64,000 nucleotides of DNA, taken from Squalus acanthias. Lineage: Eukaryota. The first letter of the stretch is position 1. Each line of letters starts with the position of its first letter. Under the pieces are notes generated by a model. The model saw nothing but the letters and a program-made list of their open reading frames with translations, ran no database searches and had not been told where the DNA came from. Where the stretch lies: contig CM059441.1 of NCBI GenBank assembly GCA_030390025.1, positions 20,770,001-20,834,000 of the forward strand, read 5' to 3'. This document shows, piece after piece, positions 5,755 to 47,652 of this stretch. A program made the translations under genes and the position numbers.

Positions 5755-6780
5755 GAAACAACAACAGAAAACGCTGGAAAAACTCAGCAGGCCAGGCAAC
5801 ATCCGTGGAGAGAGAAACAGAGTTAACGTTTCAGGTCGAAACCCTTCGTCAGAACTGAGAAAAAAGCAGGAAATGAAACAGATAAAAAAGCAAGGGGAGG
5901 CTGGGGGGAGGAATAAAAGAACAAAAGGGGTGGTCTATGGTAAGTAGAGACATTAAGAGATGCTCAAGGCAAGATGAGATGGTAATAGGACAGGTTAAGA
6001 AACAAAAGGTGGCTCAGAAGTGTGAAGTGTGAAATGCTGGCAGAATGAGAGACAGCTGCCGTGGGGGGAGAGAGAGAAAAAAAGGGAAAAGGCACAAACC
6101 AAAAGGGTGGATAAAATGTGTATATATATATATATATGTGGTAGGGGCCGAGGTTATGATCTGAAATTGTTGAACTCGATATTGAGTCCGGAAGGCTGTA
6201 AAGTGCCTAATCGGAAGATGAGGTGCTGTTCCTCGAGCTTACGCTGAGCTTCCGTGGAACAATGCAAGAGGCCGAGGACGGTGAGGTCTGAGTGGGCGTG
6301 GAGAGGTGAATTAAAATGACAAGCGACCGGAAGCTCGGGGTCACCCTTACGGACTGAACGGAGGTGTTCCGCAAAGCGGTCACCCAATCTGCGTTTGGTC
6401 TCCCCAATGTAGAGGAGACCACATCGTGAGCAGCGAATACAGTATACTAGATTGCAAGAAGTACAAGTAAATCGCTGTTTCACCTGGAAGGGGTGTTTGG
6501 GGCCCTGGAGAGTGGGAAGGGGGGATGTATAAGGGCAGGTGTTGCATCTCCTGCGCTTGCACGGGAAGGTGCCAGGGTGAGGGGGAAGGGGTGCTGGGGG
6601 TGATAGAGGAGTGGACTAGGGTGTCTCGGAGGGAGCGGTCCCTACGGAATGCTGAAAGGGGAGGTGAGGGGAAGATACGTTTGGTGGTGGGATCACGTTG
6701 GAGGTGGCGGAAATGGCAGAGGATGATCTGTTGAATGTGAGGCTGGTGGGGTGAAAGGTGAGGACAAGGGGAACTCTGGT
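5755..6780 (-). mobile_element. Penelope-like element 3' part (GIY-YIG endonuclease + pseudo-LTR)
   Basis: ORF 6483-6154 NLVYCIRC..C...YIGETKRRL..RF.EH; frameshifted upstream linker (AFRRDRSLRDTLVHS); hammerhead motif at 5821-5856. Confidence 0.9.
5821..5856 (-). ncRNA. Minimal type I hammerhead ribozyme (Penelope pLTR)
   Basis: AGUU-CUGACGA-A-GGGU(UUCG)ACCU-GAAA-CGU-U-AACU: intact core, stems I and II pair, palindromic stem III. Confidence 0.8.
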
Positions 6781-7191
6781 TGTGTAGATAATTAAAACAC
6801 ATATCCATGTCCGAGTCAGATCTCCTCAGCCAGTTGCTGCTGTACTAGGAGCTGATGCAACACGCCACAAGAATGGCTGGTGAATTCAGCCGTCACAGGC
6901 CAATGTGAGCTATAAGAAAGCGCAGTGTGAGGTATTTGCAAGAACACCACAGAGCGCTGTATCAATCACATCGGAAACTCGCTACATCCTGTGTTATCTT
7001 TACAATGCACACTGGTGAAGTCTGTGGGGTGTTTTTTTTTTCTGTGGTGACATTCTGCTCTATAGACCTTCATCTTGGTTTCTCAATAATTAAAAAAATA
7101 TATAGATAGTCCATAGAAAGAACACTTCACCTTTCCTACATAGGAACAATTATTTATTCATTATCTTTTGAATCTATTTTCAAGTTATCCA

Positions 7192-7530
7192 TCTTTCGGA
7201 TGAGACGTTAAACCGAGGCCCCGTCTGCTCTCTCAGGTGGATGTAAAAGATCCCATGGCACTATTTCGAAGAAGAGCAGGGGAGTTATCCCCAGGTGTCC
7301 TGGCCAATATTTATCCCTCAATCCACATAACAAAAAAACAGATTATCTGGTCATTATCACATTGCTGTTTGTGGGAGCTTGCTGTGCACAAATTGGCTGC
7401 CGCGTTTCCCACATTACAACAGTGACTACACTTCAAAAAGTACTTCATTGGCTGTAAAGCGCTTTGAGACGTCCGGTGGTCGTGAAAGGCGCTATATAAA
7501 TGCAAGTTTTCTTTCTTTCTTTTCTTCTTT
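7192..7530 (+). mobile_element. SacSINE1-like SINE, 5' truncated
   Basis: Deu-like core and tail AAAGGCGCTATATAAATGCAAG + T-rich repeat. Confidence 0.85.
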
Positions 7531-10500
7531 CTTTCATCCAAAGCCTCAATGTTGTGGCCCCTTGAAGTGGTCCCAACTCTTTTTAAAGTGGTTCTACACT
7601 ACAATGTCCTGGGTCTTTGAGTACAGTAGAAGTGATCCCACTTACATTTAGGTGGAATTAAGAGTACCAGGAAGAATGGAGCAAGAATTGTGAGCACACA
7701 ATATCTGTGTGCCCGCCATTCTTTAAAGGCTGCAATCCAAGCTGGTTTGTATGGGTGGGCAGAGCAAAATGGCAGCCAGACACATCCGGTGGGGGTGTCC
7801 TTTTACATAAGCCAGCATTCCATTTCTGGAGGAGCCCTTGGAAAAGCACTTCCTGACGAACACCACCTCATTTATAGAACAGGACTGCCGCTGAATATAA
7901 AATGGGCATAAATATCCGTCATCTTCTCTGTGAGGAGTATAGTCGACTTGCGCGGTGAATGCTGGTTCGCTGGATTTCTTTCAAGCGGGAGCTGCACCTG
8001 TTTCTGGATGGGGCGGAGATCACCTCGTACAAGAGGTAGGCACCTGGTAACGTTAATCTGGGCCAGAGTGGTCTCCTGGACTAGTTTTGATCGCCCAAAG
8101 GGGGTCAGAGAGGAATTTCCCGTATTTTTTATACCCTAATTGGCCTGTTTTTAAAAAATCTGCTTTTATGCTTATCCCGGGAGATTACATGGCTCCGGGT
8201 GAGAGAGTGTCTGTACTCTGATGCATGAGGCATCACAACCAACGTTTCCGCTAAACCGCGCGGCCGCACAGCCGTCTGGTGGTCCCGCGCAGACCTCTCA
8301 GCAGCTTTTCCATGGGAGATACCACACACATGTGAATATTTGGATGGGAGACGCAGCCCGTTAGAGGAACCGCACACCACAAAAAAAATCACGACTCTAT
8401 GGGACAGGCTGGATGGACAAGTAGGTCTCTTCCTGGCCCTCATTTTTCGCATGTATCTGATTTATGACAGTACCTTTTGGTTAAGCGCGTGTGAACAAAT
8501 TTTACATGAGAACTAATGCAAGCAATATTTCTGTTATTTAACCTAACATTAAATCACTTTGAGAATCTGAGATAAAACATTTCAAACTGCCTGAAAAATG
8601 TATTAAGTTGCTACTTGTATCCTCTACTTTAATTTGAAATTAGTGTGGTTTCTGGCTTTCAACAGAAAAGGATCTTTGCTCATTAAAGGATGTTTCTTAA
8701 AGAGTATGGAAGACTTTGGAGAGCAATAACTCAGCGAGGTTCATGCTGTACCACCTTTAAACCTTGTTCTGTGTGTGCGCGCATTTTGCTTCCTGCTTAA
8801 ATAGGTTGTTAAAACGGTGCGGTAAACATAGGTAAAGCAGCACAACTTTAAAGATGTAGAGGTAAAAATTTGCCTGGGCCCAGTATGCGAGCTGTCAAGG
8901 CCTGTTGTGCCTCCACAGGCAGCTTGCTTATTTGAACTGCATGAAGGTAAGTCCCGGGATTGGAGGGGAGGGGGGGCCGGGAGGGGGTCCAGCGGCAACG
9001 GCTCCTCCAAGCTCCACAGGGAGGGTTATTAAAAATTTGTTTAAAAAAAGTACCTTTCGGTGACGGCTGCTGAAGAATCCTGAGTGGGGCCAGGCCCGAC
9101 ACCCGAACAAAGACCCAATCCAAGTTTGGGCCGGCTGCTTTTCATGCTCCCTTTGGGCGCAGGTTCCCCAAAATTGGGCCTCCTTGCGCCTGTTTTAGGT
9201 GCAAAAACAGGCGCGAACAAGGTCCAACTAATTGCTAAGAGCTAAGGTCGCCCAAATTGGCAATCTTGAGTCGCTTTGCAAGTTGGGAAACTATACCCAG
9301 TTTGAAACATTTCAAATTTGTTTTGGCCAGTGCCTTTATTAAATACGCAGAAGGACAAAATGCTTTTATCCTGAGCAAGATACCATTTTCTTTACCAGAA
9401 CAATGGGTCACAGGCAAGAGGGTGGCATCTATACTGGAACAACCCCAATAAAGAAGTGTGTGTGAAACTATTTTAATATTTGTGTTATCTTCTATTTTTC
9501 CAGGCCTAGTATTGTTGGGAGAGTCTAGCAAAGGCAAAGCATTATCTGTGATGGATATTTCCCATTTTTAGTTAAAACTGGATAGATCTAGAAGATTTTA
9601 GAATGCTAGGAATATTGATAGACCAACTTAAAGCCATCACTGACTGGTCACCAAACCCATCTGCTTCTGTTTAGGCTCTTTATATAATCTATTCACAATC
9701 AAACCTACCGACCATTCTGCCTCACCAATCGCTGCTTTATAAAAATCAGAGTAGTTATGTTAATTAGGAGATGACAGTATTGCAGGAAATATCATCCATT
9801 GTTATTTGTCTCCAAAACTATCCAGATAGCATTTGAAACACTACAAATATATTTAGATTTGCATCTGATTATTTAAGGAACCAGCAATTGTTTTACAAAA
9901 TAATGAGCTCTGTCCTTAACATTCAACAAGTAGTACTGTCCTTGGAGATAAGATAGGTGTTTTGAGCTGTTTCACTGGACAAACATTCAGTAGAGCCCAA
10001 ATGAAATAAGCATAAAGAAGGCCTGGAATGGAGCCAAAATGAGGTCCTCTCATTGCTAATGGTGCCGAGTATTTCCCAAGGTACAAAATATAGTGAAAAT
10101 ATTTAATTACTTTAAAAACAGTTAAATAAGTCAATCAGGACCATCGATAAAAAGGCAGATTCTTGCAACTAATCTGTTGCAAGAGATCGGTTGCATGATT
10201 TTTGCTTTTTAACACGCAAGGGGTTGACATTTCCCTTTTGTTCAACGTGAGCAATAAAGCTGTGTTGCTCACTTCATACACTTTGATGTTCATACGAATC
10301 AGCAAAGACGGGAATTTCTCTCCGTCACCACACTGCACAGGCAAGCTTATTCAATAATATTGTTTTCGCCCATTATTCTCCCTTGCATTGCATATACATT
10401 GAGGTCATTAAAAACTCTAACTCGAAATTAGTTGTTTCTCAACCAATTTATTAACTAAAATTTGAACTGATAAGTTGAACAAGTCAGTACATATAAACTG

Positions 10501-10912
10501 TACAAATTATACTATGTATAATGTAAAGCCTCATTATTACAAATTCAGAATGAGCAGAACAATAATCTGCCTGATCAGAGAATTCACCTCATCCATGTTT
10601 GAGCTCCGAGCTTCACACCAATCAAAACTAAAGAAAATGGTCGGTAAAGCAGGAGGGTTGAGTTAGTTAAAATGAGGTTCCATTGTATTATTTGTAGTGT
10701 TTAAATTAGGAGACATGTATTTAATTTTTCTCTCAAGACAATCAATGCCGATCTTGAAAAAGTATCGCGTTTTGAAAAGCAGTTAGAAGATATTTCTAAG
10801 CGCCTGACCTCAGGTCACGAGGTTTCCCAACCGATCCCATTTCTGGTCAGACTGATGCAACTATACGTTTCTATTACTTCCAAAAATCCAAAGAAGACCA
10901 ATGTTTTCTTAC

Positions 10913-10952
10913 CTGATAGGAAAGCAATGGACAGGAGAAGAGTAAAACCCAT
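10913..10952 (-). CDS. CD300/pIgR-like receptor gene A, exon 1 (signal peptide MGFTLLLSIAFLS)
   Basis: ATG at 10952, 13 hydrophobic codons +1 nt, then donor CAG|GTAAGA at 10912. Phase 1 matches the IgV exon. Same 40-nt length as the gene B leader. Confidence 0.85.
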
Positions 10953-13560: not shown

Positions 13561-13704
13561 CCACCTTCTATGGGGCTTGAACCTCCTGGATTTTGCTTTC
13601 CTGCTGTTCCTGCTCCACCTCGTCCTCCAAAATATCAATATCCACACTGCTGAGTTCATTAAAAGCCACTCTTTTAGGATGCTCACGATGCAGTTTCCTC
13701 TACA

Positions 13705-14232
13705 GTGGAGAGACCAAACGCAGATTGGGCGACCGCTTTGTGGAACACCTCCGTTCAGTCCGTTAGGGGGACCCTGAGCTTCCGGTCGCCTGTCACTTTA
13801 ATTCTCCGCTTCACTCCCACTCTGATCTCTCTGTCCTCGGCCTATTACATTGTTCCAATGAAACTCAACGTAAGCTCGAGGAACAGCACCTCATCTTTCG
13901 ATTGGGCACTTTACAGCCTTCTGGACTCAACATTGAGTTCAACAATTTCGAACTATAACCCCTGCCCCCATTTTTCATGCTGTATGATTTTGCCATTCCC
14001 ATTTGCAACATTTTATCTTTCCTGCCTCTTACATAAGCACAGTATGTTCCTTCAATTCCTTCCTCCCCTCCCACCCCCCACCTCCCCCCTGTCTCTGCAC
14101 CTGCTTAATATCTGTTACATCTCCAGCTTTTTCCAGTTCTGATGAAGGGTCCTAGACCTGAAACGTTAACTCTGTTTCTCTCTCCACGGATGCTGCCTGG
14201 CCTGCTGAGTATTTCCAGCATTTTCTGTTGTT
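13705..14232 (+). mobile_element. Penelope-like element 3' fragment with pseudo-LTR
   Basis: Nucleotide match to 6160-6405 (GIY-YIG C-terminal part) followed by the same pLTR/hammerhead block. Confidence 0.88.
14135..14171 (+). ncRNA. Minimal type I hammerhead ribozyme (Penelope pLTR)
   Basis: AGUU-CUGAUGA-A-GGGUC(CUA)GACCU-GAAA-CGU-U-AACU. Confidence 0.8.
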
Positions 14233-14984
14233 ACTCTTTTAGGAACATAGGAACAGGGGGAGGCCATTCAGCCCCTCGAGCCTGTTCCGCCATTCAATGC
14301 GATCAGGGCTGATCTGTATCTTAACTCCATCTAACCGCCTTGGTTCCATGTCCCTTAATACCCTTGCCTAACAAAAATCAATCAAACTCAGTTTTGAAAT
14401 TTTCAATTGACCCCCAGCCTCAACAGCCTTTTTGGGGGAAGAGAGTTCCAGATTTCCAATCTATCAATGTATCCTACTCACCATGTGAACTCTACTGGTA
14501 AGAGAAATGAGCAAACTGTCACAATGAAATATATTCTCAGCAAGTTTGCATGTTTCCCATCAATTTCTACTTAACAAACAATTAACAACAAAAATGAACA
14601 AAAAATAATATCAGGCCTGGGTTAATATGTATTACAAATATTTATTCCGAGATGCAAGCGAGTACAGCCACTGCATTAATGCCAACTCACATAATTACCA
14701 CCCCCTAGCACACATTAGCACTAGTGCGCTAGCCCTCACACACCAACCCCACCGATGTGAAGTACAAAAACAGGAAAACATAAAGGAATTAGATAGCCTC
14801 ATACGGTGCAAGTGGCAAATCGTCAGCCTTACAGTCAGGTCATTTTTTTGAACTGGATGGTACAGTGGGTTAATACCCTGCCCTTTCACATCTGGTACTA
14901 GTGCTTGAATCCAATCTGCACTATGTGATAAAAGTCTCCTTTCAGTGCTGGCTCAAACAAACATACATGAAATGAGTTTGGCAG

Positions 14985-16615: not shown

Positions 16616-19352
16616 CACCCAAACACATTGCAGTGCACTCACTGACACACTTCACCCAAACACATTGCACCGCACTCACTGACACACTTCACCCAAACAC
16701 ATTGCACCGCACTCACTGACACACTTCACCCAAACACATTGCACCACACTCACTGACACACTTCACCCAAACACATTGCACCACACTCACTGACACACTT
16801 TGAAGGGATAATTACTAGTCCTAGCCCCTTTAGGGCTACCCTGGATCAGACGTATTCTCCAGACGTTCACTTTCAACTAAAGTTTGAGGTAGCCGAATCT
16901 TAAAGACGCTTAATTGGGTCTAAAGGTCCGGACTATCTCTCCCTGAAGGAAAGGAACAACCTGAAGATGTTACCATCCTCCAGATAGCACTTTTAATAAG
17001 TTTAGCTAGACTGTAACGTTCCGGATATTATGAGGGTCCGGAAAACTCCCTCAGAATTCTGCAACTCCTCACCAAAGAGCGTACAGAGATTGAGTTTGCG
17101 AGTTTGATACAGAAGTATGATGTGAGACAATTCTAAAAATATATAGATTTATTAAAGAACCGACATGTAATTACAGTTGGTGATTCAATCGCAACATTAA
17201 CAGTTCCAATAACAGAAATCTTACAATTCTATTATCAGAGATCCTTATTCTCAAATCTTAACTTCGTTACATTTTTACAGTTCTTAGTTTTATTCCAGGG
17301 TATCCACCAAAATCAAATATAGTACAATACCTTGATCCCCGAGGTACAAAAAGTTGTAGACTTACAGAGCTTGCCTCTGAAGCCGAGAATCGCTTTGCCC
17401 CTTTACAGCGAATCTATCATCCCATTTGAAAGTTCAATATTTATATCCTTTCTCAGTGGTATTTCCTTTGAAGTTTTCTGCTGATGTAAGCTAATTATCT
17501 CTCGTCATTTTTCTGCTGACCCCTGCTATTCTTACAGTCAGTTCAGCTGGTAGCATTACGAATCGTGTCTCTACCTTTAGGTGTTCGAAGCTTATCATAA
17601 AAACGGTGTGACAGCAGATGCATCTATTTGATGTCATTCTTACCAAGGTCTTCTGTTTGTGTCTTTTTACAACGTGTAAATTAAAAACACCTCAACCGGG
17701 TGCACCATTGTCTTCTTAGTTACCTCAGCTATTTGCAACACAGACTCGTGTCTCCTGTGTTTCATTTGATGTCATTTTTACGAAGGCATATGTTTTTTAA
17801 TTTTCTGTGTTTCTTTCCTAAGTGTAATTTAGGACACCTTAACAGGGTGTACCATTGTGTTCTTTCCAAAGCTTCAGACTTCAGGAGCTTCCAACCTCCT
17901 GTTTCAATAAGGTTATTGATTCAGTGTCAACAACATATCTTATCTCAATAGACTGTATGCTGTTTACAGCTTCTACATTGTTAGGTTTTTAGATTTTCAA
18001 GCCCAATTTGTCATGTTACAAAGGCCAGAATTCTTTCATAGAATGGTGTATTTTTCTGAATATGGCTTATTCCTTCACAACTTTACCCAAACACATTGCA
18101 CCACACTCACTGACACACATCACCCAAACACATTGCACCACACTCACTGACACACATCACCCAAACACATTGCACCACACTCACTGACACACTTCACCCA
18201 AACACATTGCACCACACTCACTGACACACATCACCCAAACACATTGCACCACACTCACTGACACACTTCACCCAAACACATTGCACCACACTCACTGACA
18301 CACTTCACCCAAACACATTGCACCACACTCACTGACACACACATCACCCAAACACATTGCACCACACTCATTGACACACTTCACCCAAACACATTGCACC
18401 ACACTCACTGACACACATATCACCCAAACACATTGCACCACACTCACTGACACACTTCACCCAAACACATTGCACCACACTCACTGATACACATCACCCA
18501 AACACATTGCACCACACTCACTGACACACATATCACCCAAACACATTGCACCACACTCACTGACACACTTCACCCAAACACATTGCACCACACTCACTGA
18601 CACACATCACCCAAACACATTGCACCACACTCACTGACACACTTCACCCAAACACATTGCACCACACTCACTGACACACATCACCCAAACACATTGCACC
18701 ACACTCACTGACACACATCACCCAAACACATTGCACCACACTCACTGACACACTTCACCCAAACACATTGCACCACACTCACTGACACACTTCACCCAAA
18801 CACATTGCACCACACTCACTGACACACTTCACCCAAACACATTGCACCACACTCACTGACACACACTTCACCCAAACACATTGCACCGCACTCACTGACA
18901 CACTTCACCCAAACACATTGCACCGCACTCACTGACACACTTCACCCAAACACATTGCACCACACTCACTGACACACATCACCCAAACACATTGCACCAC
19001 ACTCACTGACACACATATCACCCAAACACATTGCACCACACTCACTGACACACTTCACCCAAACACATTGCACCACACTCACTGATACACTTCACCCAAA
19101 CACATTGCACCACACTCACTGACACACACATCACCCAAACACATTGCACCACACTCACTGACACACATCACCCAAACACATTGCACCGCACTCACTGACA
19201 CACGTCACCCAAACACATTGCACCACACTCACTGACACACTTCACCCAAACACATTGCACCACACTCACTGACACACTTCACCCAAACACATTGCACCAC
19301 ACTCACTGATACACTTCACCCAAACACATTGCACCACACTCACTGACACACT
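16616..19352 (+). repeat. 37-bp minisatellite (about 5 + 34 copies) interrupted by a solo LTR
   Basis: Unit CACCCAAACACATTGCACCACACTCACTGACACACTT with occasional 39-bp variants; runs up to the polypyrimidine tract of the Myb exon 2 acceptor. Confidence 0.95.
16801..18079 (-). mobile_element. Solo LTR, 1279 bp (ERV- or Gypsy-type)
   Basis: TG...CA ends with inverted termini TGAAGGGATAA / TTATTCCTTCACA; 4-bp TSD ACTT (16797-16800, 18080-18083); minus-strand TATAAA near 17440 and AATAAA at 17153-17148; no coding ORF. Confidence 0.8.
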
Positions 19353-21427
19353 TCCCTTTATCTTGCAGGGCAAGGTGGCACATAACAGGAGACAGCAGAA
19401 TTTAACCAGCGGGAGACAGGCATGGCTGCATATCCTGACCCAGCTGGAGGAGACTGTGCTTGACATTATTGGCGGGGCCGTCACTGAGGCCATGGCGATT
19501 GGCGAGGCTGAAACCGTTGAAGATGACAGTGTGCTTACACCTAATCCTCCTTCTCACATCCCACTTCCCCCTCATCCCACAATCTCTTCTCACTTACAAG
19601 CTGCTGATGGTGTAAGCATGCACCTCTTGCTTTCCCCCCTCCCCTCATCGCAACCCCACCCTTGTGCCTTTCTCCTTTCAGATAATCAAGAACTCCAAGC
19701 TTCCCAGCCAGTGCAGGATGAACAAGAGGAGAGTGATGGAGAGGAAGAAACGCGGCCACTCAATCTGACACTCACTGGCACTAGCTCAGAAACTGGCGCT
19801 GCGCATACTTTTGAGGGCAGTATAGAGGCGGGATCTGCACGTGGTGAGTCACTGGGCATGAGTGGCCTGCAGCCAGGGCAGAGGGAAAGGGTAGCGCAGG
19901 TGCCAGCCCCCCGAAGGGCGAGCTCGCAGACGAGTTTTGCTGCAGAGGACTCAGATGAGGACTTCGATGGGGTGGCCTGCAGAAGAAGGGTGATGGGCAT
20001 GCAAAAGAGCCTGTTGTCACTGTTAAGGAACATGGAGGCATCCGGCTCCAACATTGCACAGGATTTTGCACAAAGCCCATGATTTCCAGGATGGAAGTGA
20101 TGGGCAACTCCATTAGAACACTTGTGGACCCAACCATGATGCAGGGTCTGATGGCTGATGCCTTAGCTTCCATTGCAGCACAAGCAGAAGTGACCCAACA
20201 TCTGAGTGCTACAGTGGAAGCTCAAACTTCTGCCACGCAAACTCAGCTTGCCGCCACTTAAGCTCAGACTGTTGCCATCGAGGCTTAATTTACCAGTGTG
20301 GAAAGGGGCTTGCAGGGTGTCACAGCAGCCCAGCAATCTGTCCTCCAACAGATTACTAGGAATGCTGAGGCGCTGCCCCGGGGGAGTGGCAGTGGCTCCG
20401 TGGAGCACGAACCTGCTGTCCTCTCTCAGGAGTCCAGCATTCGTACTACCACCACTGCCACTCCACCAGTGCTCTTGCTGTTGCCTGTCAGCCAGCCAGC
20501 CCAGACTGCTGCCGCCCATGCCGAGACGGTGCAGTCCACATCCGGGCCTTCGAGGTGCAGAGCTGCTCGAGGTCATCCTGCAAGGTCATCTGCAGTCTCC
20601 CCCACTGAAAGTCAGCAGCTTTCCACCAGCCATGCTGTAGTCACTGGGGTAGCACTTCGTAGGAGCACCAGGACAGGCAAAGGCACACGGAAGACAGGCA
20701 CTAAGGGAATACACAAGGGTGATTAGCTGACTTTGTAGTATTGGATTGAATGATTAATAAACGTGGTTTGGAATGTTTGTTTTGTGGTGGCTTTCATTTC
20801 AGCTTTGTGACCAAGAGGACGCTATAGTGTTCCATGACAGAGGGCTGGTAAGGTGGGGAAGTGTTGAGCAACGGGGATCTGAGGTTTCATTCAGGGGAAA
20901 TGGAGTCTGATGATGCGCTCACGGACAGCCTGTCCGGAACGTGGATACGTAGGCTGCTTCCTCCATTCCCCCTCCTCCTCTTCCTTCTCCTTCTCCGTTG
21001 GTCACGGAACCCGTGGTGGCAAGGGCTGCACCCTCATGATGGCCAAGTTGTGGAGGATGCAGCAGACCACCACGAATTGGGACACCCACTCCGGTGAGTA
21101 CTGGAGGGCTCCTCCCGAGCGGTCAGGGCAACAGAACCGTTGCTTCAGCACCCCGATGGTCTGCTCGATGATGTTCCTCGTGGCAGCATGGCTCTCATTA
21201 TATGAGTGCTGGCCACGAGTGGTGAGGTTGTGGAGGGGAGTCATCAGCCAGGTGTAGAGCGGAGAGTCCTTGTTGCCTATCAGCCACCTTCAGGTTCGAA
21301 GTGGTGGCTGGAAAATTGCTGGCACTGCAGACTGGCGCAGGATAGCCGGCATTCACCATCACGGTGTGCTGAACATGGTCACACACCAACTGCTCATTAA
21401 GTGAGTGGTACTCTTTGCAGTTACGGA

Positions 21428-22319: not shown

Positions 22320-23857
22320 TTACAAATCCAGTTTAATAACAGGTTTGTGGAGCCTTCCTGATCTACTTCCAGAAGGTTTTGGTGTTGAACCAATTTTCGG
22401 GCTGTTTTGTTTTGGTTCCAAACTCAAAGATGATCCTGTTTCTATCTCAGACTTGTTTGAACCTGGTACTTCAGTTTCTGAAGTCTGAACTGAGTCAAAC
22501 TCATGGATGAGTTCATGATCAAGGGGTTCAAGATCATGTCTTGGTTCATCTCTAGCAGAGATCATTTGATCTACATGAACACTTCGGATGTTGTCACCAA
22601 TTTCAACCAAATATCTCTTGGTTCCACCAACCTCTACTATGGTTCCTACATCCCACTTGTGTGAACTCGACTTTCCAGGGGGACTGAGAACACAAACACA
22701 CTCGTTTTGTTTGAAACTGTGTTCTTTCTGATTGCTGTCATAATAACGTTTCTGACTCAACTGTTTCTGTTCAACTCTTGAGGCCAAATTTGGTTGAACA
22801 AGACTCAATCGTGTTCTCAATCTCCTATTGATCAAGAGTTCTGCTGGGGTATGTCCAGTTGTAGTGTGTGGAGTAGTTCTGTACTTCAGCAAGAAATTTG
22901 CCAAACGTTGCTTCATGCTGAGTCCCGAACAACCCTACAACACTTGCTTTTTGAGAGCTTCTTTTACTATTCTGACTGACCTTTTGGCTGCTCTGTTTGA
23001 AGCGGGATGATATGGTGGAACAAGAGTATGTTTGATACCGTTCCTTTTCATGAATTCTTGGAATAGAACAGAACAGAACTGAGAGCCATGGTCAGAAACA
23101 AGATCTTCTGGTAAGCCATGACATGCAAAGACAAACCTCAACTCATCTATGGTAAGTTCAGTTGTAGTATTTGAACCCATGTGTTTCACTTCAATCCACT
23201 TTGAGTGACTATCTACAAATACCAGGAAATAATCATTTGCTTTCTCACAGAAGTCTACATGTACTCTCTGAAAAGGTCTACTTGGCCATGACCAGGGTTG
23301 TAGTGGAGTTTTGGGTGTTTTTTTCCTGCAATTTTGACAAACACTGCATTTGATGACAAGTGATTCAAGAACATTGTCCAATCCAGGCCAATAAACAAAG
23401 CTTCTTGCAATTGATTTCAAACTAACGATCCCTGGATGTTCAGTATGAAGTTCGGCCAGAATTCTGTCTCTCAAAGAAGTAGGTAACACCACTCTGTTTC
23501 CCCACTTGATACAACCTTGCTCACAAGACAATTCAGTACGACGGTTATGGAATGGTTTCAATTCTGTGTCCATACACTGATCAGTCCATCCATTCAAGGT
23601 GTTTTCATACACTCTTTTCAGTACAGAGTCCTTTTGAGTCCTCATCTGCAGTCTCAGTTGCATTCATTTGTCAACTGCACCTAGTGTGAAAATCTCACCT
23701 TCACTCCCAACACATGAGTCCTCATGTGGCAACCTGGACAAGGCATCTGCGATTGTGATTTGCTTTGAAGTGCGATATTCAATTGTGTAGTCATATTGTG
23801 ACAACAACACTGCCCAACGTTGCATTCCTGATGCGGCCATTGCAGGGATGGCAGTGA
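22320..23857 (-). pseudogene. Gypsy RNase H tail + integrase with stops
   Basis: QRWAVLLSQYDYTIEYR, ADALSRLP, H..H..C..C zinc finger, HVDF and SDHGSQF; catalytic E position reads K (SNRAAKRSV); in-frame stops at 23664 and 22935. Confidence 0.9.
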
Positions 23858-24606
23858 AAACACTTTGCATTTCTGTATTGGCAGGACTGTGGTGAGTGAT
23901 TTCTATTGCAGTGATAACAATTCACTAAACTGCTCTCACCAACATGCTTTTCACCCAGTCTCACAGCTTTAGGTTTGGCGGTGGCTTTGTGACTGTAGAC
24001 CTCAGCTGCACTAGTCACTTGAGTTGGACAGAGCTCCCTAGCATTCTTAGACACCTTCTCCATAGATAGGGCAATTTTGCATGCTATGTCAAACGTTAGG
24101 TTCAAAGTGTTCAGTAACTTGGACTGTGTGCGCTCATCTACCAGTCCACACACAAACTTATCTTGCAACGCACGATCCAAAAATGTGCCAAAGTTACAAT
24201 GTAAAGACAGGCTCTTAAGAGCTACAATATACTCACTGATGGTTTCACTTTGTTTTTGGTTTCTGGTACCAAACTTATAGCTCTCTGCTATTTCTAACGG
24301 CTTTGGGTCGAAATTGTCCTCGAGTTTCTCGACAATGTCTTCAAACGACGCTTCCTTTGCTTTCCCTGGCGCCAGTAGTTTTGTCAACGTTCTGTAGACA
24401 TCTGGCCCGATCTCCGTTAGAAAAATTGCTTTTTTCCGTTCACGAATTATTTTATTTTGAGCTTGAACATTCTCATCAGCACCTTCGGTCTCAATAATAT
24501 TATTGGCCATAAAAAATATCTCCATCCGCTCAATGTAAGAACTGAATGGTTCGTGAGCTCGGTCATACAGGCCAAGGCTTCCGATGAATCCCGCAGGCGC
24601 GGCCAT
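23858..24606 (-). pseudogene. Gypsy gag, truncated in the zinc-knuckle region
   Basis: YIERMEIFF.AN, F..RNQ...ETI.EY...L..L...CNFG, CYHC...H....C knuckle; jumps directly into RNase H tail sequence. Confidence 0.85.
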
Positions 24607-28533: not shown

Positions 28534-28536
28534 CGA

Positions 28537-31847: not shown

Positions 31848-31947
31848 CTATATTTTCACTTGGACTAAAATGGCCCAAACCAACAGAATGGCAAAGAATA
31901 CCCAGCGAAAAATGCTCCATATAAAATAGTACAGCGAATTATTTTTC
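31848..31947 (-). CDS. CD300/pIgR-like receptor gene B, exon 4 (transmembrane, KNNSLYYFIWSIFRWVFFAILLVWAILVQVKI*)
   Basis: Pyrimidine-rich acceptor ...TCTACCTAG| at 31948; phase 2 joins the stalk in frame; hydrophobic helix with Arg; TAG at 31850-31848; donor CTG|GTAAGT at 31833. Total CDS 40+333+55+100=528 nt (175 aa). Confidence 0.85.
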
Positions 31948-32053
31948 CTAGGTAGATAGAAGACAAAATGGTTTAATCTGAACAGTTATCTAAAGCCACA
32001 GAATTACCTTGGACATATGAATCATTTGGTCACACTTGTGGTGGAAAGATAGG

Positions 32054-32760
32054 GGGGGAGAAATTCATTATAGCCCCATTTGGGGCGTTAACTTTTAAAA
32101 GTTGAAAATATTAGTGCCAGGCACTGACGTTTTTCAACTTTTAAAAAATTTGTTTTTTCGCTCCAGGAAGGAAGTGGAGCGCTAAATCAAGCTGAACAGG
32201 CAGCGGGCGGGGCGGTAGGTGAGCAGCGCTGCTGCGTTGGAAGGCTCCTTCCCTCCCTTAAAGGGAAGGGCCATCGCTGCAGGCTCTGCAAGAGGAAAAC
32301 TTACCTGGTCCCTGACGGCAACTGCGATCCGGCCCGATCAGCCTGATGCACTGCAGCAGAGTGCCGGGCTGATCGATGGCTGGTGAAGAAAAATGAAAAA
32401 AAAAACTGCAAGACCATTTGAGAATTTTTTCCACTTACCTCGGCCACCTCGCCTTTAAGTATCGCCCCCGAAGCGCCCGGCCTCCCGATGAACGCCTCCT
32501 GCAGCTGTCGGTGTCATCGCCCGGCGATGTTGCAGGGGGCGCAACCGAAGTTCGGGTCCGGGGAGCTACGCACGGCGATGATGTCACGATCTTCTGGCGA
32601 AGGAGATCGGGGCGCAACGCCATACCGCTGCCCCAAACCTCCCGCCGAATATAGCGGGAGTCGATCTCCTCGCCGTGGTCGGTCGGTAAGTGCTTAGCGC
32701 CATGTTATCGCCTCTGGAGGTGATAACTGGAGGCGCTAAGGTGCCCAATTTCTAGCCCCC
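32054..32760. mobile_element. Harbinger-derived MITE (~0.7 kb)
   Basis: GGGGGAGAAATT / AATTTCTAGCCCCC ends; GCCCCATTTGGGGCG, GTGGAGCGCTAAATCA, GGAGGCGC shared with the autonomous element. Confidence 0.8.
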
Positions 32761-33578
32761 CCGGAGTGTTTCTGCTTCCGAGCTCCTGGTACACGCTGCA
32801 AGATTACACGCCTCGGCCCGTGACATTCTATCTATTAAAATCAGCGGACAGAAAGTATCGGGTTGGAAGGTGCGCTATCGCCCGGTATTAGCATGTGCCA
32901 AGAGCATTGAAGTGGCAAATCACCAGTTTATTTTTCCCGATAGATATGAGAATATAATGACAGCATAGTATCACGAATCAGCTTCTACTGATTTCCTTGT
33001 GATAAAAATACTTGTTAAAATTAAAAGCAAAAACAGAAAACGTGGGAACAGGTCAGTCAGCAATCACGGAAAAAGCAGCTGAGTTCAGGCGTAGACTCTT
33101 TTTACACAGGATTACACAGGATATACGGCACAGAAACAGGCCGTTCGGCCCAACCAGTCCATGCCAGCGGCGTTTATGCTCCACTCGAGCCTCCTCCCAC
33201 CTTTCCTCATCTAAACTCTCTCAGCGTAACCCTCTGTTCGCTTCTCCCTCATATGCTTGTCTAGCCTCCCCTTAAATGCAACTATACTATTCACTTCAAC
33301 CACTCCCTGTGGTAGTGAGTGCCACATTCTCGCCACTCTCTGGGTAAAGAGAACTGAAACGTTAACTTGTCTGTTTTCTCCACAGATTCTGTTGAGCCTT
33401 TCCACCATTTCCTGTTTTCGCTTTGGAATTGCAACATCTGCGGGGTTTCGCTTTTTGTTGTTGTTAAAATGTATTTTTGTGTTTTGATCTAAACATACAA
33501 CAAGCACTGTGAACGGAAGATGTCAGTGGGCAGTTGTTTGCGAGTTTTAAGTGCAATACTTAATTAAAAAAAAACATT

Positions 33579-33748
33579 GGGGGTAGTTTTAACCTAACTC
33601 AGCGGGCAAGAAACCCACGGGATCGGATGGCACATCGCTTTTACACCCCCGCCCAATATTAAAACCGGAGTGCGGGTGGGTTGTAAAACCAGCATTGCGC
33701 CAAATCCCATCAGTTTCCTGACAAGCCAGTTGGGTTAAAATTGCCCCC
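33579..33748. mobile_element. Small MITE
   Basis: TIR GGGGGTAGTTTTAACCTAACT / AGTTGGGTTAAAATTGCCCCC. Confidence 0.75.
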
Positions 33749-34451
33749 ATAGAAGCAGTTTGCGAGAGATTAAAGTACCTTTTCAGATCATATTTCTTGC
33801 ACAGTTTGATAAACTGCAGGACTCTTGGGCAATGTCTTCCGTAAGCCGCACTGCCTCCTGCGCGGCCTGCCTCCCCCCAATGCGTGGACCATTCTAGTTT
33901 TTGCGTGCGCGCGCCGTATCTACAATGTAAAAGCCGGCGAGCGGCCTGCGCGGGAACTCGCAGATGACTGCGCGGCCACGCAGCTTAGCGGGAACATTGC
34001 TCTTGGGTGTATCAGACTTTCGTAGGCCTCCATCCTGCGGAGTAGTGAACGGATGGTGTGAAATTCCAATCCATGGGGGTTCAGCGCCTGGAATTTCCGC
34101 TGCTGATCTCTCACTGTAACGGCCGTTTGTACCATTTCTCCGGGGCTTTCGCCGATCTCCCGCCAAAGTTATGGCGAGAGATTGGGAGAGGCCCCGTGCA
34201 AATCTACCCCCAGATCTTTAGCTAAAACTAAAGTAATCAGAAATCCATTTTTATGTCATGGTAATTCTTTCGCTGATTTTGGTAGTTAAAGGGTGGCAAA
34301 TTAAAATATAGCATTGGTGCGATTGGTGATCCTCTCCTGGGTCTGTGAGCTGGATTTTAACTTTCGGGAGTCTGAGTGCGTGAGGCGGCTGACTGATAGT
34401 GCTGTCTCTCCCAGCTTTTATTTCTATTCACATCAACAGGAGAGTTGTAAA

Positions 34452-34912
34452 ACAGCAGGAACAGCACCTCATCTTTCGATTAGGCACTTTACAGCCTTCT
34501 GGACTTAACATCAAGTTCAACAATTTCAGACTATAACCTCGTCCCCTATATGTTTTTTTCCTTTTTTCTCTTACATGGTAGCTGTTGATCATTCTGCCAT
34601 CGCCATTTACACCTCATCTAGAGTCATCTTTTGTTCCTTAACTTGTCCCATTACCTCTCTTTTTGCCTTGCACCATCAACCCCTTTGTCAGCCAATCTCT
34701 CCTGCCTTCCAGCCTATCACAGTCCTTCCCTTTTGTTCTTTCCTCCCCTCCTCCCTGTCCCTGCCCCTACACTTGCTTAAAAATCTGTTACTTCTCTAAC
34801 CTTTTCCAGTTCTGATGAAGGGTCATCGACCTGAAACGTTAACTCTGTTTCTCTCTCTCTCCTCGATGCTGCCTGACCTGCTGAGTGTTTCCAGCATTTT
34901 CTGTTGTTATTT
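34452..34912 (+). mobile_element. Penelope-like element 3' fragment with pseudo-LTR
   Basis: GGAACAGCACCTCATCTTTCGATT.GGCACTTTACAGCC as in the other two copies; hammerhead at 34808-34844. Confidence 0.85.
34808..34844 (+). ncRNA. Minimal type I hammerhead ribozyme (Penelope pLTR)
   Basis: AGUU-CUGAUGA-A-GGGUC(AUC)GACCU-GAAA-CGU-U-AACU. Confidence 0.8.
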
Positions 34913-35176
34913 GAGGTGTAAAACGGGCTGCCCATTCACTGTCACGAATTTTACTTTATCCCATAAAGTTAAAAATACCCCCTTTGATTCTGATGCGAGT
35001 GTAAAAATCTGCATCTTGTTCCAGAGCACTGACATCCCACGCTGGGCAAATCTTCACCTCCCCTGAGAAGCGAGGATGATCTCTCGTATGGCAGTGGGAC
35101 GTTACTCATTATTACAGTTGTGCAAATTCAGAACAAATGCTCAGAATGAACCAGTGTAAACAAGTTTGACATTTAC

Positions 35177-35231
35177 CTTTGGATTTTCATGTCTGACGGA
35201 TAATCTGAGGATGAAGGAAGTAACTTGGGAG
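35177..35231 (-). CDS. CD300/pIgR-like receptor gene B, exon 3 (stalk APKLLPSSSDYPSDMKIQR)
   Basis: TTTTTAACAG| acceptor, AAG|GTAAAT donor; 55 nt, phase 1-2; 18 nt longer than the gene A exon. Confidence 0.82.
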
Positions 35232-35486
35232 CTGTTAAAAAATAGTGTAAAGAATTGTGATTAGATTATTCAGTCTGAGCCATCGGTGATAAATTTGTAC
35301 TAATTAGTGATAAAAAAAATGGAAGATTTCATGGGATAGAATTAGTACCAAAATTAAACACTTTGTCGTTTTTCACTATTCTGCTAGTTTACTTTTAACA
35401 GAGTTATAACTTTCCGCTGAAAACGTTGGAAATTTTGCAAAATATATAATAAATCTTGCAGCAAACTATATAAAATCAAAAATGTA

Positions 35487-35695
35487 TGACATGAATCTTG
35501 TATGAAGTAATACTGGGCGGCCTGCTGGTGGCGCTGTCCAGGGAGAGTATAAATACTCGGGCATGAGCCCAGCTTGCTTAGGACATTCCTCGACAGGAAC
35601 TAGTGAAGGACACAACTAGATCTCCATGTTGAAAACCAGTTGATTAAAGCTTTGTTTAACACTTAGACCAAGTGCCTAGTAGTTTTCTTACGTCA
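35487..35695 (+). mobile_element. Solo LTR, 209 bp, in intron 2 of gene B
   Basis: TGAC...GTCA termini, 5-bp TSD ATGTA, TATAAA near 35548 and ATTAAA near 35643; absent from the homologous intron of gene A. Confidence 0.85.
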
Positions 35696-35745
35696 ATGTA
35701 CAGTTGAAAAATGTACACAATTATAAATGTATATTCAGGTCCTAC

Positions 35746-36078
35746 CTTCACTGACTGTAAGGTTTACAGGACTTAACAGGTCCAGAAATTTTTTTTGAAT
35801 TCCACACCAGTACAAGCCTTGGTCATTCACCGTTAATCGTTCCATCGTGACTGAAAATTCCCCCGCTTCATTATCAGCTGCAATGGTGATTCTGCCGTCA
35901 GAGTTTGCCTTCCAAGGGCCCCGGGTTTGTACTAGAATAGTACAGGCTGTCCAGTTGTAGCCTTTACACCAGTACTTTTGATAATTGCTGTATACTGTGT
36001 CATAGGTACAGGTGATATGGACCGATTGTCCCACTGCTCCATTCACGACATCTGGTCCACTGAGTGCAGCGCATGTAA
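35746..36078 (-). CDS. CD300/pIgR-like receptor gene B, exon 2 (V-type Ig domain)
   Basis: Acceptor GAACAG| at 36079, donor GAAG|GTAGGA at 35745; 333 nt open; ITC..KYWCKG..C..GRI..DQGLYWCG; about 58% identical to gene A V domain by hand alignment. Confidence 0.93.
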
Positions 36079-36437
36079 CTGTTCAGTGTGAAATTATAAC
36101 ACACGTTTTAAAGTACAATAAAAGTAAATAAATGTAACAGTTTAATAGCATATTTTGAATGCTTAAATTTTAAATATGTGTATTGAAACTCATGAACTTA
36201 ACCTCCCAATTTGATCATTCTAACGGTGTGTTTGAGGGTCTTCTGTGCTTACGGTGTTTTGCAAAGGAGTACAGACAGTATTCTTTATTGAAACCCTGCT
36301 GTCCTTGCAGAAATATGGACTCCAAGGGTTAATTTACCAGGAGAGATGACACAAACTAGGGTTGTATTCCCTGGCATCTAGAAGGTTAAGGGGTGATTTG
36401 ATCGAAGTTTTCAAGATATTAAGGGGAACTGATAGGG

Positions 36438-40700: not shown

Positions 40701-40711
40701 GACAGGATAAT

Positions 40712-45530: not shown

Positions 45531-46468
45531 TATTAGTCCAATCTGTATTACAGTCAAAATATCAAAGGATCTCATTCATGTTCACTATAGATACAGCGGC
45601 TCCATAAACTTACAGAGCTCTTTCATCTCTCTCACGAAGCATGGGTAAGAACCACCAACTTTTTGCTTTTGTACCACTGCCCTTTAAATTCAGACATTTT
45701 CTTTGAAGGAATCAACTCTGGACCTTCTGAAGCCAAGGCTAGATTAACACGGATGGCCATTTCTATTTCGTACTCTGCAGCCGTGCTTTATCACACCGTG
45801 TTGTATCTGATATTGATGTACTAAATTGGCATCTCTCCTAAAGATGCACTGTACAATGTCTGTTTGGCTATCAAAAGGTGTGCTATCTTCCTTAATTAGG
45901 CTCATTAAATATTATTTTTTGGTTTCAGCACGGTGAGAATTCTTCACATTTTTTTTGCCTCCGTAGCCTGGGATGCAGGTCAGGTGCTGGTGCCGTTCAG
46001 TACAATGTATCTCATCGTGCACTGTTTGTAATCAAAGGAGAAAAGTCTGTTGGACACACTTAAATAACATTAGGGATTTATGTTGCCAGTCAGCATGATT
46101 TAAACGTGAACCAGTTAATTTAAATGAATTGCCAGAGGGCTGTGAATGCTGAGTCTTTGAGTATATTCAAGGCTGAGATAGATAGATTTTTGGACTTGAG
46201 GGGAATCAAGGGATATGGGGATTGGGCAGGAAAGTGGAGTTGAGGCCGAAGATCAGCCATGATCTTATTGAATGGTGGAGCAGGCTCGAAGGGCTGTGTG
46301 GCCTACTCCTGCTCCTATTTCTTATGTTCAAAATAGCTGACTGTAATATATCAGCAGCTGAAGTATGTTATTGTCTCAAGAAGGGTTCTGTATCAGCAAA
46401 AACTGTAGCATGGTACAAGGAATGAAAGAAATAAGGAACTAATAAACGTTATTACTCAGCATCTGTAT

Positions 46469-47040
46469 AGCAACAACAACTTGCATTTTTAATGTAGAGA
46501 AACAACACAAGGCACTTCACAGGAGCGTTATCAGTCAAAGCTTGACACAGATCCCAGGGAAAATCCTTCCATTGTTTAAAACAAGTTCCACTTAAGATAG
46601 ATTCCACAGAACTATCATTGCAATGTTGCTGTTCTATACTTCCTACATCTACAATAAATAATAGTCATTACACCACAGTTACAGAACAAAACATGTTAGC
46701 ATAGTTTCCCCGAGGAAGAAAAGCTACTGTTGAAGATAGCATATGGCTATAAGGAGATATGAGGACAGGTGACCAAAAGCTTGAGTAAAGAGGTAGGTTT
46801 TAGGGAGCATCTTACAGGAGGAGGGAGCGGTGGAGAGGTTTCGGGAGGGAATTCTGGAGCTTAGGGCCTAAATGGCTGAAGGCATGGCCGCCAATGGTGG
46901 GGTGAAGGGAGTGGAGATGGAGGAGCGCAGAGTTCTCGGAGAGTTGTAGGGCTGGGGGAGGTTACAGAGATAAGGAAGGGTGAGGCCATGGAGGGATTTG
47001 AACACAAGGATGAGAATTTTAAATTCGAGGCATTGCCTGA
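46469..47040 (-). mobile_element. L2 LINE 3' end containing a 200-bp copy of neighbouring DNA
   Basis: L2 sequence at 46469-46550 and 46749-47040. Confidence 0.8.
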
Positions 47041-47414
47041 CCGTGGGCCAATTATTTTACTTTTTAAAAAGTGTTTTAAGTGGAAATTAATGCAATGTAC
47101 ATAATTTGAACAGCTATTTTGAAATTGCCTAATTTTGTCATAACAATAATTGTGTGAGTAAATTAATAGATTGCATGCATCCCACATGCAGTTATAACAA
47201 TATGAGTCACTTAACAGATCCCAGGGAAAATCCTTCCATTGTTTAAAACAAGTTCCACTTAAGATAGATTCTACAGAACTATCATAGCAATGTTGCTGTT
47301 CTATACTTCCTACATCTACAATAACTAAGTCATTACACCACAGTTACAGAACAAAACATGTTAGCATGGTTTCCCCCGAGGAAGAAAAGCCACTGTTGAA
47401 GATAGCATATGGCT
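46547..47414 (+). repeat. ~200-bp direct duplication (46547-46748 and 47214-47414)
   Basis: Near-identical blocks from ACAGATCCCAGGGAAAATCC to GATAGCATATGGCT. Confidence 0.95.
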
Positions 47415-47519
47415 GGTTAGGATGGCCTCAACAACAAAAGCTTTCAAACAAATTAAAGCATTTGGTTGCTATGTAATCTAGTTTAGTTATAGGCTATGGA
47501 GTCAAGTTTAAGATCATTG

Positions 47520-47652
47520 TTTCACTTCACCTGACGAAGGAGCAGCGCTCCGAAAGCTTGTGATTTCAAATAAAACTGTTGGACTATAACCTGGTGTTGT
47601 GCGACTTCTCACTTTTGTCCACCCCAGTCCAACACCGGCATCTCCGCATCAT
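47520..47652 (+). mobile_element. Short Penelope-type pLTR remnant of a second family
   Basis: Hammerhead core followed by AATAAA and GTTGGACTATAACCTGGTGTTGT; no ORF. Family assignment is inferred from the ribozyme architecture. Confidence 0.65.
47527..47563 (+). ncRNA. Minimal type I hammerhead ribozyme, second family
   Basis: UCAC-CUGACGA-A-GGAGC(AGC)GCUCC-GAAA-GCU-U-GUGA: all three stems differ in sequence from the first family yet pairing is kept. Confidence 0.85.

What the first reader, a model, noticed from the sequence alone, without database searches (positions are those of the whole stretch)
5821..47563. Four minimal hammerhead ribozymes of two families with palindromic stem III (dimer-type)
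Seen: 5821-5856(-), 14135-14171(+), 34808-34844(+) and 47527-47563(+) all read stemI-CUGA(U/C)GA-A-stemII-GAAA-palindrome-U-stemI'. Family 1 uses AGUU/AACU, GGGU(C)/(G)ACCU and ACGU; family 2 uses UCAC/GUGA, GGAGC/GCUCC and AGCU. Every helix changes sequence while pairing is kept, and within family 1 variation falls in loop II and the variable core position. Known: Penelope-like element pseudo-LTRs carry minimal hammerheads thought to cleave as dimers through a palindromic stem III, and an extra A between A9 and G10.1 is a tolerated core variant. Inference: predicted cleavage is after GUU or CUU; the different palindromes (ACGU vs AGCU) could act as a family-specific pairing code so only like copies activate each other.
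Basis: partly seen in the sequence, partly recalled or inferred. Interest (0 to 1): 0.75.

Follow-up and report, generated by a model that had tools for sequence, protein, structure and literature searches.

The report
Shark Penelope-element minimal hammerhead relics
The four small hammerhead-shaped RNA motifs are real, and three sit in the tails of broken Penelope-like jumping genes in a shark or ray genome (the fourth likely does too); such motifs are already described and are predicted to cut only in pairs, and the proposed palindrome 'pairing code' is likely a by-product of two families drifting apart.

Summary
All four motifs are at the stated coordinates and far exceed chance (4 hits; 0.02 per shuffle). 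Three lie downstream of a GIY-YIG endonuclease end in 5'-truncated Penelope-like elements (PLEs) whose proteins match sharks and rays. The fourth is a 125-bp insertion with a 10-bp target-site duplication; its empty site is seen in 3 of 3 runs that cover the flanks, including the best-matching species label. The minimal core, extra nucleotide at 9/10.1, palindromic stem III and dimer model are in Cervera & De la Peña 2014, whose alignment already shows both palindromes, ACGU and AGCU. The 'code' idea is weak: in a double hammerhead stem I also pairs across the two copies, and a family 1/2 hybrid keeps 1 of 8 stem I pairs whatever the palindrome; published co-resident families share palindromes at chance rate (8 of 15 pairs; 7.8 expected). 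All four copies span the predicted cut site, so an uncut (or rejoined) RNA was probably the template. Cleavage was not tested. This scan already noted the same kind of motif in other pieces of this genome and in other sharks. Verdict: real, known kind, low interest.

The parts
5821..5856 (-). Copy 1, family 1 minimal hammerhead: AGUU-CUGACGA-A-GGGU[UUCG]ACCU-GAA-ACGU-U-AACU; predicted cut between 5825 and 5824
5756..6777 (-). 5'-truncated PLE copy 1: linker plus GIY-YIG end (a frameshift near 6615), 3' UTR, hammerhead, tail of about 65 nt; no target-site duplication found; lies in sense in intron 1 of a CMRF35/CD300-like gene
   Evidence: tblastn of shark PLE protein P0004 residues 248-456 to 6777-6145, E 3e-61; TSD searches empty; gene exons
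6154..6615 (-). GIY-YIG endonuclease ORF end of copy 1
   Evidence: Pfam PF01541 E 9.6e-5, 23 bits against cut-off 22.6; best hits 57-71% identical in sharks and rays
14135..14171 (+). Copy 2, family 1 minimal hammerhead; predicted cut after 14167
13680..14232 (+). 5'-truncated PLE copy 2: GIY-YIG end, internally shortened 3' UTR, hammerhead, 65-nt tail
   Evidence: 87% to copy 1 over 289 nt; tblastn E 4e-36; alignment A1
13668..13679 (+). 5' copy of a perfect 12-bp target-site duplication of copy 2 (3' copy 14233-14244)
14233..14244 (+). 3' copy of the 12-bp target-site duplication of copy 2
34808..34844 (+). Copy 3, family 1 minimal hammerhead; predicted cut after 34840
34454..34912 (+). 5'-truncated PLE copy 3: last codons of GIY-YIG, 3' UTR, hammerhead, 72-nt tail; candidate 12-bp duplication with one mismatch at 34442-34453 / 34913-34924; antisense in an intron of a pIgR/CD300-like gene
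47527..47563 (+). Copy 4, family 2 minimal hammerhead: UCAC-CUGACGA-A-GGAGC[AGC]GCUCC-GAA-AGCU-U-GUGA; predicted cut after 47559
47523..47647 (+). 125-bp solo insertion (4 nt + hammerhead + tail) of a very abundant repeat; absent from orthologous sites in three runs
   Evidence: empty-site joints and depth
47513..47522 (+). 5' copy of the 10-bp target-site duplication of copy 4
   Evidence: 10 letters of ambiguity at the empty-site joint
47648..47657 (+). 3' copy of the 10-bp duplication; its first 5 bases also match the family's own continuation to 47652
10914..10952 (-). Host context: leader exon of the CMRF35/CD300-like gene whose V exon is at 3935-4282(-)
   Evidence: 13 of 13 residues identical to P0029, E 0.018
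35741..36082 (-). Host context: Ig V exon of a second, pIgR/CD300-like gene (transmembrane exon 31851-31946)

Best explanation
The four motifs are minimal hammerhead sequences carried in the 3' ends of 5'-truncated Penelope-like retroelement insertions (shown for three copies, likely for the fourth) from two families of a cartilaginous-fish genome; they are predicted to cut only as a pair, most likely the two pseudo-LTR copies of one tandem element transcript, and these lone relics probably do not cut at all. Mechanism: (1) shown: each copy ends 65-90 nt downstream of the predicted cut and contains the cut site intact; copies 2 and 4 have perfect 12- and 10-bp target-site duplications, and copy 4 has an empty site. 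(2) Inferred, by analogy with Poseidon of Anolis: the element's GIY-YIG nicks the target and its RT starts at an internal site in the tail of an uncut (or rejoined) RNA, then stops early, which leaves tail + hammerhead + a variable piece of UTR/ORF. (3) Inferred: stem III has only A-N-N-U and cannot close on itself, so two copies swap strands; each active site takes the 5' stem I strand, core, stem II and GAAA from one copy and U16.1, H17 and the 3' stem I strand from the other. (4) Predicted: family 1 and family 2 cannot activate each other, mainly because stem I does not match and also because the palindromes differ; this is a consequence of divergence, not a selected code.
For: Motifs exact and beyond chance. 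GIY-YIG end upstream of all three family-1 motifs on the same strand; homologues in sharks and rays, with full RT+GIY-YIG proteins among the hits. Duplications. Empty site for copy 4: contig of run X5 (organism A, the best-holding label) is letter-identical over 246 flank bases and skips 47513-47647; X6 and X13 also join across. Family 2 is highly repeated: summed contig depth 1.6-2.8 million over the motif against 14 in the flank in X5 (not a copy number, by the tool's note); no substitution at >=4% was listed in 47527-47558, while loop II takes insertions and position 17 varies U/C. Head-to-tail joints of the family-2 unit (47652 back to 47524 in X5; 47631 back to 47521 in X6) show natural tandem copies. 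A 90%-identical family-2-type motif lies about 800 nt downstream of a GIY-YIG ORF in metagenome locus L002. Literature: PMC4209133, PMC11167929. Helix tally and energies; palindrome tally.
Against: No cleavage, RNA ends or circles were observed; only contigs were on hand. Family 2 has no ORF in this window, so its PLE origin in this genome rests on L002, the duplication and the shared anatomy. Copy 1 has no duplication and copy 3's has a mismatch and overlaps the start of another repeat. A G>A change at 47562 (10% in X5, 4% in X21) would break a stem I pair and no matching change at 47528 was listed. Thermodynamic cofolding does not return the double-hammerhead fold as the minimum for any pair. 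The palindrome does contribute to hybrid exclusion: about 8.0 of 18.8 kcal/mol in the crude helix sum, against 10.8 for stem I.
Confidence: 0.85

Rival explanations
1. The palindrome is a selected family-specific code: transcripts from dispersed copies pair in trans, and ACGU versus AGCU keeps the families from activating each other.
For: The two families do differ in palindrome; a hybrid stem III keeps 2 of 4 pairs and costs about 8 kcal/mol in the helix sum. No substitution at >=4% was listed in the family-2 palindrome in three runs. Family 2 is abundant enough for trans encounters to be conceivable.
Against: Stem I alone blocks the hybrid (1 of 8 pairs). Only four palindromes are possible and 29 of 41 published motifs use ACGU; co-resident families share the palindrome in 8 of 15 pairs, 7.8 expected (representatives only, small n). 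The AGCU plus UCAC/GUGA set recurs in an unrelated element (L001/L002), which looks like inheritance or constraint, not local avoidance. Published dimers cleave weakly even in cis.
Confidence: 0.07
2. The motifs do not act as dimers in vivo; the PLE protein helps a single motif fold and cut, or cutting is dispensable and the motif rides along as a structural or parasitic feature.
For: In Anolis Poseidon the hammerhead cut only with the element's protein, mutants still inserted, and no RNA-seq reads ended at the cut site (PMC11167929). Naiad and most Chlamys PLEs spread without canonical hammerheads (PMC8557442). All four copies here span the cut site.
Against: Strict palindromy of positions 15.2/16.2 in 4 of 4 motifs here and 40 of 41 published 4-nt motifs is explained by self-pairing and not by a monomer model; monomers did not cut and dimers did in vitro. 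The two readings are not exclusive.
Confidence: 0.25
3. Copy 4 is a non-autonomous hammerhead mini-element (retrozyme- or SINE-like) and not a truncated autonomous PLE.
For: It holds only hammerhead plus tail, has a duplication, and the unit also occurs head-to-tail; a 2026 preprint derives animal retrozymes from PLE pseudo-LTRs and reports them in one chondrichthyan.
Against: Other copies continue upstream of 47521 with a shared sequence (loose ends, agreement 0.64-0.93), so the family is longer than this copy; retrozymes carry canonical type I motifs with loop-loop contacts.
Confidence: 0.15
4. The motifs were co-opted to cut the pre-mRNA of the neighbouring CD300/pIgR-like genes.
For: Copy 1 lies in sense in intron 1 of the CMRF35-like gene.
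Against: It is alone in that intron; copy 3 is antisense in its intron and copies 2 and 4 lie on the strand opposite both genes; copy 4 is missing from orthologous sites in three runs; family-1 motifs are barely better kept than their flanks.
Confidence: 0.02

Closest known systems
Minimal hammerheads (min-HHR) of metazoan Penelope-like elements, Cervera & De la Peña 2014, PMC4209133 (read: main text parts 1-2 of 4, supplement parts 1-2 of 3)
   Same: CUGANGA-H core, unpaired base between 9 and 10.1, G at 10.1, GAAA-N-N-U-H with palindromic 15.2/16.2, short stem I, U-rich upstream flank, place in the 3' end of mostly 5'-truncated copies, several families per genome. ACGU and AGCU both appear; stem I UCAC/GUGA appears in the lamprey and sea urchin rows.
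   Different: No chondrichthyan among its 56 rows; family 1 has G10.1-U11.1 where G-C is usual. Cross-family pairing is not discussed in the parts read.
Poseidon of Anolis carolinensis (PAc), Frangieh et al. 2024, PMC11167929 (read: parts 1-2 of 4)
   Same: C-terminal GIY-YIG, hammerhead in the pseudo-LTR, genomic ends some tens of bases downstream of the cut site, AT-rich targets, uncut RNA as the insertion template.
   Different: PAc was assayed; these were not. PAc RT starts 85-92 nt past the cut by the paper's numbers, like family 2 (88-93 nt) and longer than family 1 (65-72 nt). PAc priming was reported as non-homologous, while copy 4 shows a 5-nt overlap between family tail and target (one case). 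Clade (Poseidon or Neptune) was not tested here.
Dimer-cleaving small hammerhead variants of PLEs, Lünse, Weinberg & Breaker 2017 (not held; seen only as cited in review PMC6765202, passages)
   Same: Palindromic, very short stem III; cleavage as dimers helped by tandem layout.
   Different: Could not check whether that paper lists shark motifs or tests mixed dimers.
Non-LTR retrozymes of animals, PMC7229834 (passages) and bioRxiv 10.64898/2026.07.22.740005 (part 1 of 5 and passages)
   Same: Type I hammerheads needing a partner in vertebrates; derived from PLE pseudo-LTRs; reported in one chondrichthyan genome.
   Different: Retrozymes are tandem arrays; the four copies here are single, and three carry PLE coding sequence.

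Membership tests
PLE minimal hammerhead (min-HHR) | Intact core C3 U4 G5 A6 N7 G8 A9 ... G12 A13 A14 A15.1 ... U16.1 H17 | tested here: met
   4 of 4 copies
PLE minimal hammerhead (min-HHR) | No helix III beyond a palindromic A-N-N-U | tested here: met
   ACGU in 3, AGCU in 1
PLE minimal hammerhead (min-HHR) | Unpaired base between 9 and 10.1; G at 10.1 paired with 11.1 | tested here: met
   Extra A in 4 of 4; G-C in family 2, G-U in family 1
PLE minimal hammerhead (min-HHR) | Covariation or constraint across genomic copies of one family | tested here: inconclusive
   Three family-1 copies have invariant stems I and III; family-2 contigs list no change at >=4% in 47527-47558, U/C at 17, loop II insertions, and one unmatched stem I change at 47562. 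Linked changes cannot be read from these tables and no genome was held.
PLE minimal hammerhead (min-HHR) | Self-cleavage as a dimer, not as a monomer | not testable with these tools
   No assay; only contigs available
Endonuclease-containing Penelope-like element, family 1 | [quoted passage not shown] | tested here: met
   3 of 3 copies
Endonuclease-containing Penelope-like element, family 1 | PLE-type RT in the same ORF | tested here: inconclusive
   Truncated away in the window; homologues P0004, P0023, P0024 carry RVT_1 ahead of the matching region
Endonuclease-containing Penelope-like element, family 2 | GIY-YIG/RT ORF upstream of the hammerhead | tested here: inconclusive
   Absent in copy 4; present about 800 nt upstream of a 35/39-identical motif in L002, an unrelated element (tblastn E 8e-15; Pfam 21.7 bits, just under the 22.6 cut-off)
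Endonuclease-containing Penelope-like element | 5' truncation with short target-site duplication (8-10 bp cases in PMC3846280, passages) | tested here: met
   Perfect in 2 of 4 copies (12 and 10 bp), one-mismatch candidate in 1, none found in 1; empty site for copy 4
Endonuclease-containing Penelope-like element | Tandem or inverted arrangement forming two pseudo-LTRs | tested here: inconclusive
   Not in this window; head-to-tail and opposite-strand joints for family 2 in contigs
Canonical type I hammerhead (Rfam models) | Match to an Rfam hammerhead model | tested here: not met
   No hammerhead among 10 matches up to E=10
Non-LTR retrozyme | At least two consecutive tandem units each with a hammerhead | tested here: not met
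   All four window copies are single

The most novel reading that the evidence does not exclude
Co-resident Penelope families in sharks keep orthogonal dimer interfaces (stem I plus palindrome together) under selection, so that transcripts of very abundant dispersed copies, including intronic ones, pair in trans and cut only their own kind: a natural, family-addressed RNA-cutting network.
Probability: 0.06. Interest if true: 0.55.

Novelty: new member of a known kind. Interest (0 to 1): 0.14.

Why it matters
As found, it extends a described motif to cartilaginous fishes, which the 2014 alignment lacks, and shows that family 2 was probably still inserting recently (copy 4 is missing in another sample under the same species label). 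It gives clean substrates for an open question, what PLE hammerheads do, since every copy spans the cut site. If orthogonal interfaces were selected for pairing in trans, that would be a new layer of RNA control and a source of orthogonal ribozyme pairs, but the evidence here leans against it.

Tried and rejected
Rfam scan: no hammerhead model matched; this reflects the models, not the motifs. Whole-genome census: no genome held. Viral contigs: 8 pattern hits, none confirmed, for the GIY-YIG protein; 0 hits for the family-1 motif. Sequencing runs: no RNA holder listed on record; run X21 is RNA only by guess and all four laid runs are contigs, so ends, strand and circles could not be seen. Folding z-scores of hammerhead plus tail were unremarkable (-0.66 to 1.14) and cofolding minima were not the active dimer: uninformative for a motif held by non-canonical core contacts. 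Alternative register A10.1-U11.1 for family 1: rejected because family 2 and the published consensus need the extra unpaired base. Target-site duplication of copy 1: none found, exact or with 1-2 mismatches. Literature for a cross-family code: 'hammerhead + heterodimer + Penelope' gave 0 papers; 'double hammerhead/palindromic/intermolecular/retrotransposon' listed only unrelated papers; 'hammerhead + Penelope + shark' gave 4 papers, none on shark PLE hammerheads by listing, and in the one opened 'shark' refers to the shape. The library lacks most subscription papers, including Lünse 2017, and the 2026 preprint's supplements are closed, so prior description of these shark motifs is not excluded. 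Host co-option rejected (see rivals).


Full report
Observation. The four motifs are present exactly as described. A general hammerhead descriptor run over both strands found 4 hits, these four, each with a 4-bp stem I, one extra A after CUGANGA, a 4-5 bp stem II, GAA, a 4-nt palindrome and U17; 200 shuffles gave 0.02 hits on average and no palindromic one. A relaxed scan added a single weak site and no decayed relic. Rfam matched no hammerhead model. Predicted cuts follow 5825(-), 14167, 34840 (GUU) and 47559 (CUU).

Setting. The window is vertebrate DNA rich in LINEs, Harbinger and Gypsy-like relics, with two Ig V exons. Proteins match cartilaginous fishes: the GIY-YIG ORF at 6154-6615(-) hits sharks and rays at 57-71% among 25 hits, and the V exons match shark and ray CMRF35-like and pIgR-like proteins. 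No genome was held.

Family 1. All three motifs lie in one repeat family: self-comparison and alignment join copies 1-3 through the ORF end, UTR, motif and tail, and shark PLE protein P0004 aligns to 6777-6145, 13674-13967 and 34402-34545. Homologues P0004, P0023 and P0024 carry an RT domain upstream. The copies are 5'-truncated and end 65-72 nt after the predicted cut. Copy 2 has a perfect 12-bp duplication; copy 3 has a one-mismatch candidate that overlaps the start of another repeat; copy 1 has none.

Family 2. Copy 4 matches nothing else in the window. It is a 125-bp insert (47523-47647) between 10-bp direct repeats. I laid 4 of 24 listed runs on 47420-47800, all contigs. A contig of X5 (organism A, the best-holding label) is letter-identical over 246 flank bases and skips the insert with 10 letters of ambiguity; X6 shows the same joint and X13 also joins across; X21 does not cover the flanks. 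So the site is empty in 3 of 3 runs that cover it, and the insertion is probably recent and polymorphic (that organism A is the window's species is inferred). Summed depth over the motif was 1.6-2.8 million in X5 and 3.0-3.3 million in X6 against 14-16 in the flank, and 0 in X13; the tool warns that this is no copy number, but the repeat is plainly very abundant. No substitution at 4% or more was listed for 47527-47558; loop II takes insertions (7.0% and 5.5% in X5) and position 17 reads C in 29% of X5 depth, both tolerated changes. Against this, G>A at 47562 (10% in X5) would break a stem I pair with no partner change listed; short contigs and mapping bias limit these tables. Other copies run on upstream with a shared sequence, end near 47652, and occur head-to-tail or on opposite strands. 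A metagenome scan with the family-2 pattern gave 2 loci, 99.6% identical to each other over 677 nt and so one family; the positions left free by the pattern completed the AGCU palindrome and the GUGA strand, with A at 17, and in L002 a GIY-YIG ORF lies about 800 nt upstream on the same strand. Outside the 39-nt motif (35 identical) they do not align with the window.

How it most likely works. The anatomy fits target-primed insertion from an RNA whose hammerhead was uncut or rejoined: each copy spans the cut site and ends in a tail beyond it. This agrees with Anolis Poseidon, where RT starts internally downstream of the hammerhead, hammerhead mutants still insert and cutting needs the protein (PMC11167929). 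The A-N-N-U stem III cannot close on itself, so two copies must swap strands. From strand connectivity (my inference), each active site then takes U16.1, H17 and the 3' strand of stem I from the partner. The usual partner is probably the other pseudo-LTR of the same tandem transcript (review passages). The lone relics here have no such partner: copy 1 is alone, in sense, in intron 1 of the CMRF35-like gene; copy 3 is antisense in an intron of the second gene; copies 2 and 4 lie on the opposite strand to both genes. Family-1 monomers are also predicted to trap the core against the palindrome.

The code idea. In forced register a homodimer forms 8 stem I and 4 stem III pairs (-14.2 kcal/mol for family 1, -19.0 for family 2); a family 1/2 hybrid forms 1 of 8 and 2 of 4 (+2.2). 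Of the 18.8 kcal/mol lost, about 10.8 come from stem I and 8.0 from the palindrome (crude nearest-neighbour sums without the core). In the published alignment I tallied 41 of 56 rows with a 4-nt stem III, dropping 15 with longer ones: ACGU 29, AGCU 5, AUAU 5, AAUU 1, one non-palindrome. Families from one genome share the palindrome in 8 of 15 pairs; permutation gives 7.8. The rows are chosen representatives and few, so this shows no avoidance but does not exclude it.

Comparison and novelty. Every structural feature is in Cervera & De la Peña 2014 (PMC4209133), including the extra base, the palindrome, weak dimer cleavage and several families per genome; no chondrichthyan row is among the 56. 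A 2026 preprint reports retrozymes in one chondrichthyan. Lünse et al. 2017 was not held. Searches for a cross-family code found nothing, within a library that lacks most subscription papers. Earlier notes of this scan record the same kind of motif in other pieces of this genome and in other sharks; I treat them as leads only.

Verdict. Novelty: new member of a known kind. Interest 0.14.

Noticed in passing
window 47648-47652: The family-2 sequence in other copies keeps matching the window to 47652, five bases into the 3' target-site duplication, which would fit primer-template pairing at the RT start; one case only, and the PAc paper reports non-homologous priming in vitro.
   Followed up: partly
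window 47523-47647: The insertion stops 4 nt upstream of stem I, as if reverse transcription ended just after passing the hammerhead; whether this is a preferred truncation point is unknown.
   Followed up: no
L001 964-1002 and L002 1328-1366: An unrelated marine PLE carries a motif 35/39 identical to family 2, with A at position 17, while flanks do not align: strong constraint, deep inheritance or transfer. L002 also has a 109-nt inverted repeat of its UTR before the ORF, and L001 an inverted RT fragment.
   Followed up: partly
protein P0008, C-terminal read-through: The peptide SLMKGLRPKRQLLCS in this zebra-shark model looks like a family-1-type hammerhead read in frame, which suggests the motif is shared by other sharks; DNA not seen.
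   Followed up: no
window 3569-10952(-) and 31851-36082(-): Two CD300/pIgR-like genes in tandem: a CMRF35-like gene (leader, V exon, next exon) and a second with V and transmembrane exons.
   Followed up: partly
window 51005-54663: Harbinger-like element with a 440-codon DDE_Tnp_4 ORF (-) and a Myb/SANT ORF (+), apparently well preserved; a related remnant may lie at about 19270-21260.
   Followed up: no
window 60040-63937(+): Near-complete CR1/L2-group LINE with an SGNH/GDSL esterase-type ORF1, endonuclease and RT, broken by stops.
   Followed up: no
window 22320-24642(-): Broken Gypsy-like LTR retroelement relic with gag and integrase domains.
   Followed up: no
window 46547-46748 and 47214-47414: A 203-bp direct repeat, 96% identical, flanks a LINE-tail-like segment just upstream of copy 4.
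   Followed up: no
window 51408-51746: Tandem repeat of about 57 bp (several near-identical units) inside the Harbinger Myb gene region, probably in an intron.
   Followed up: no
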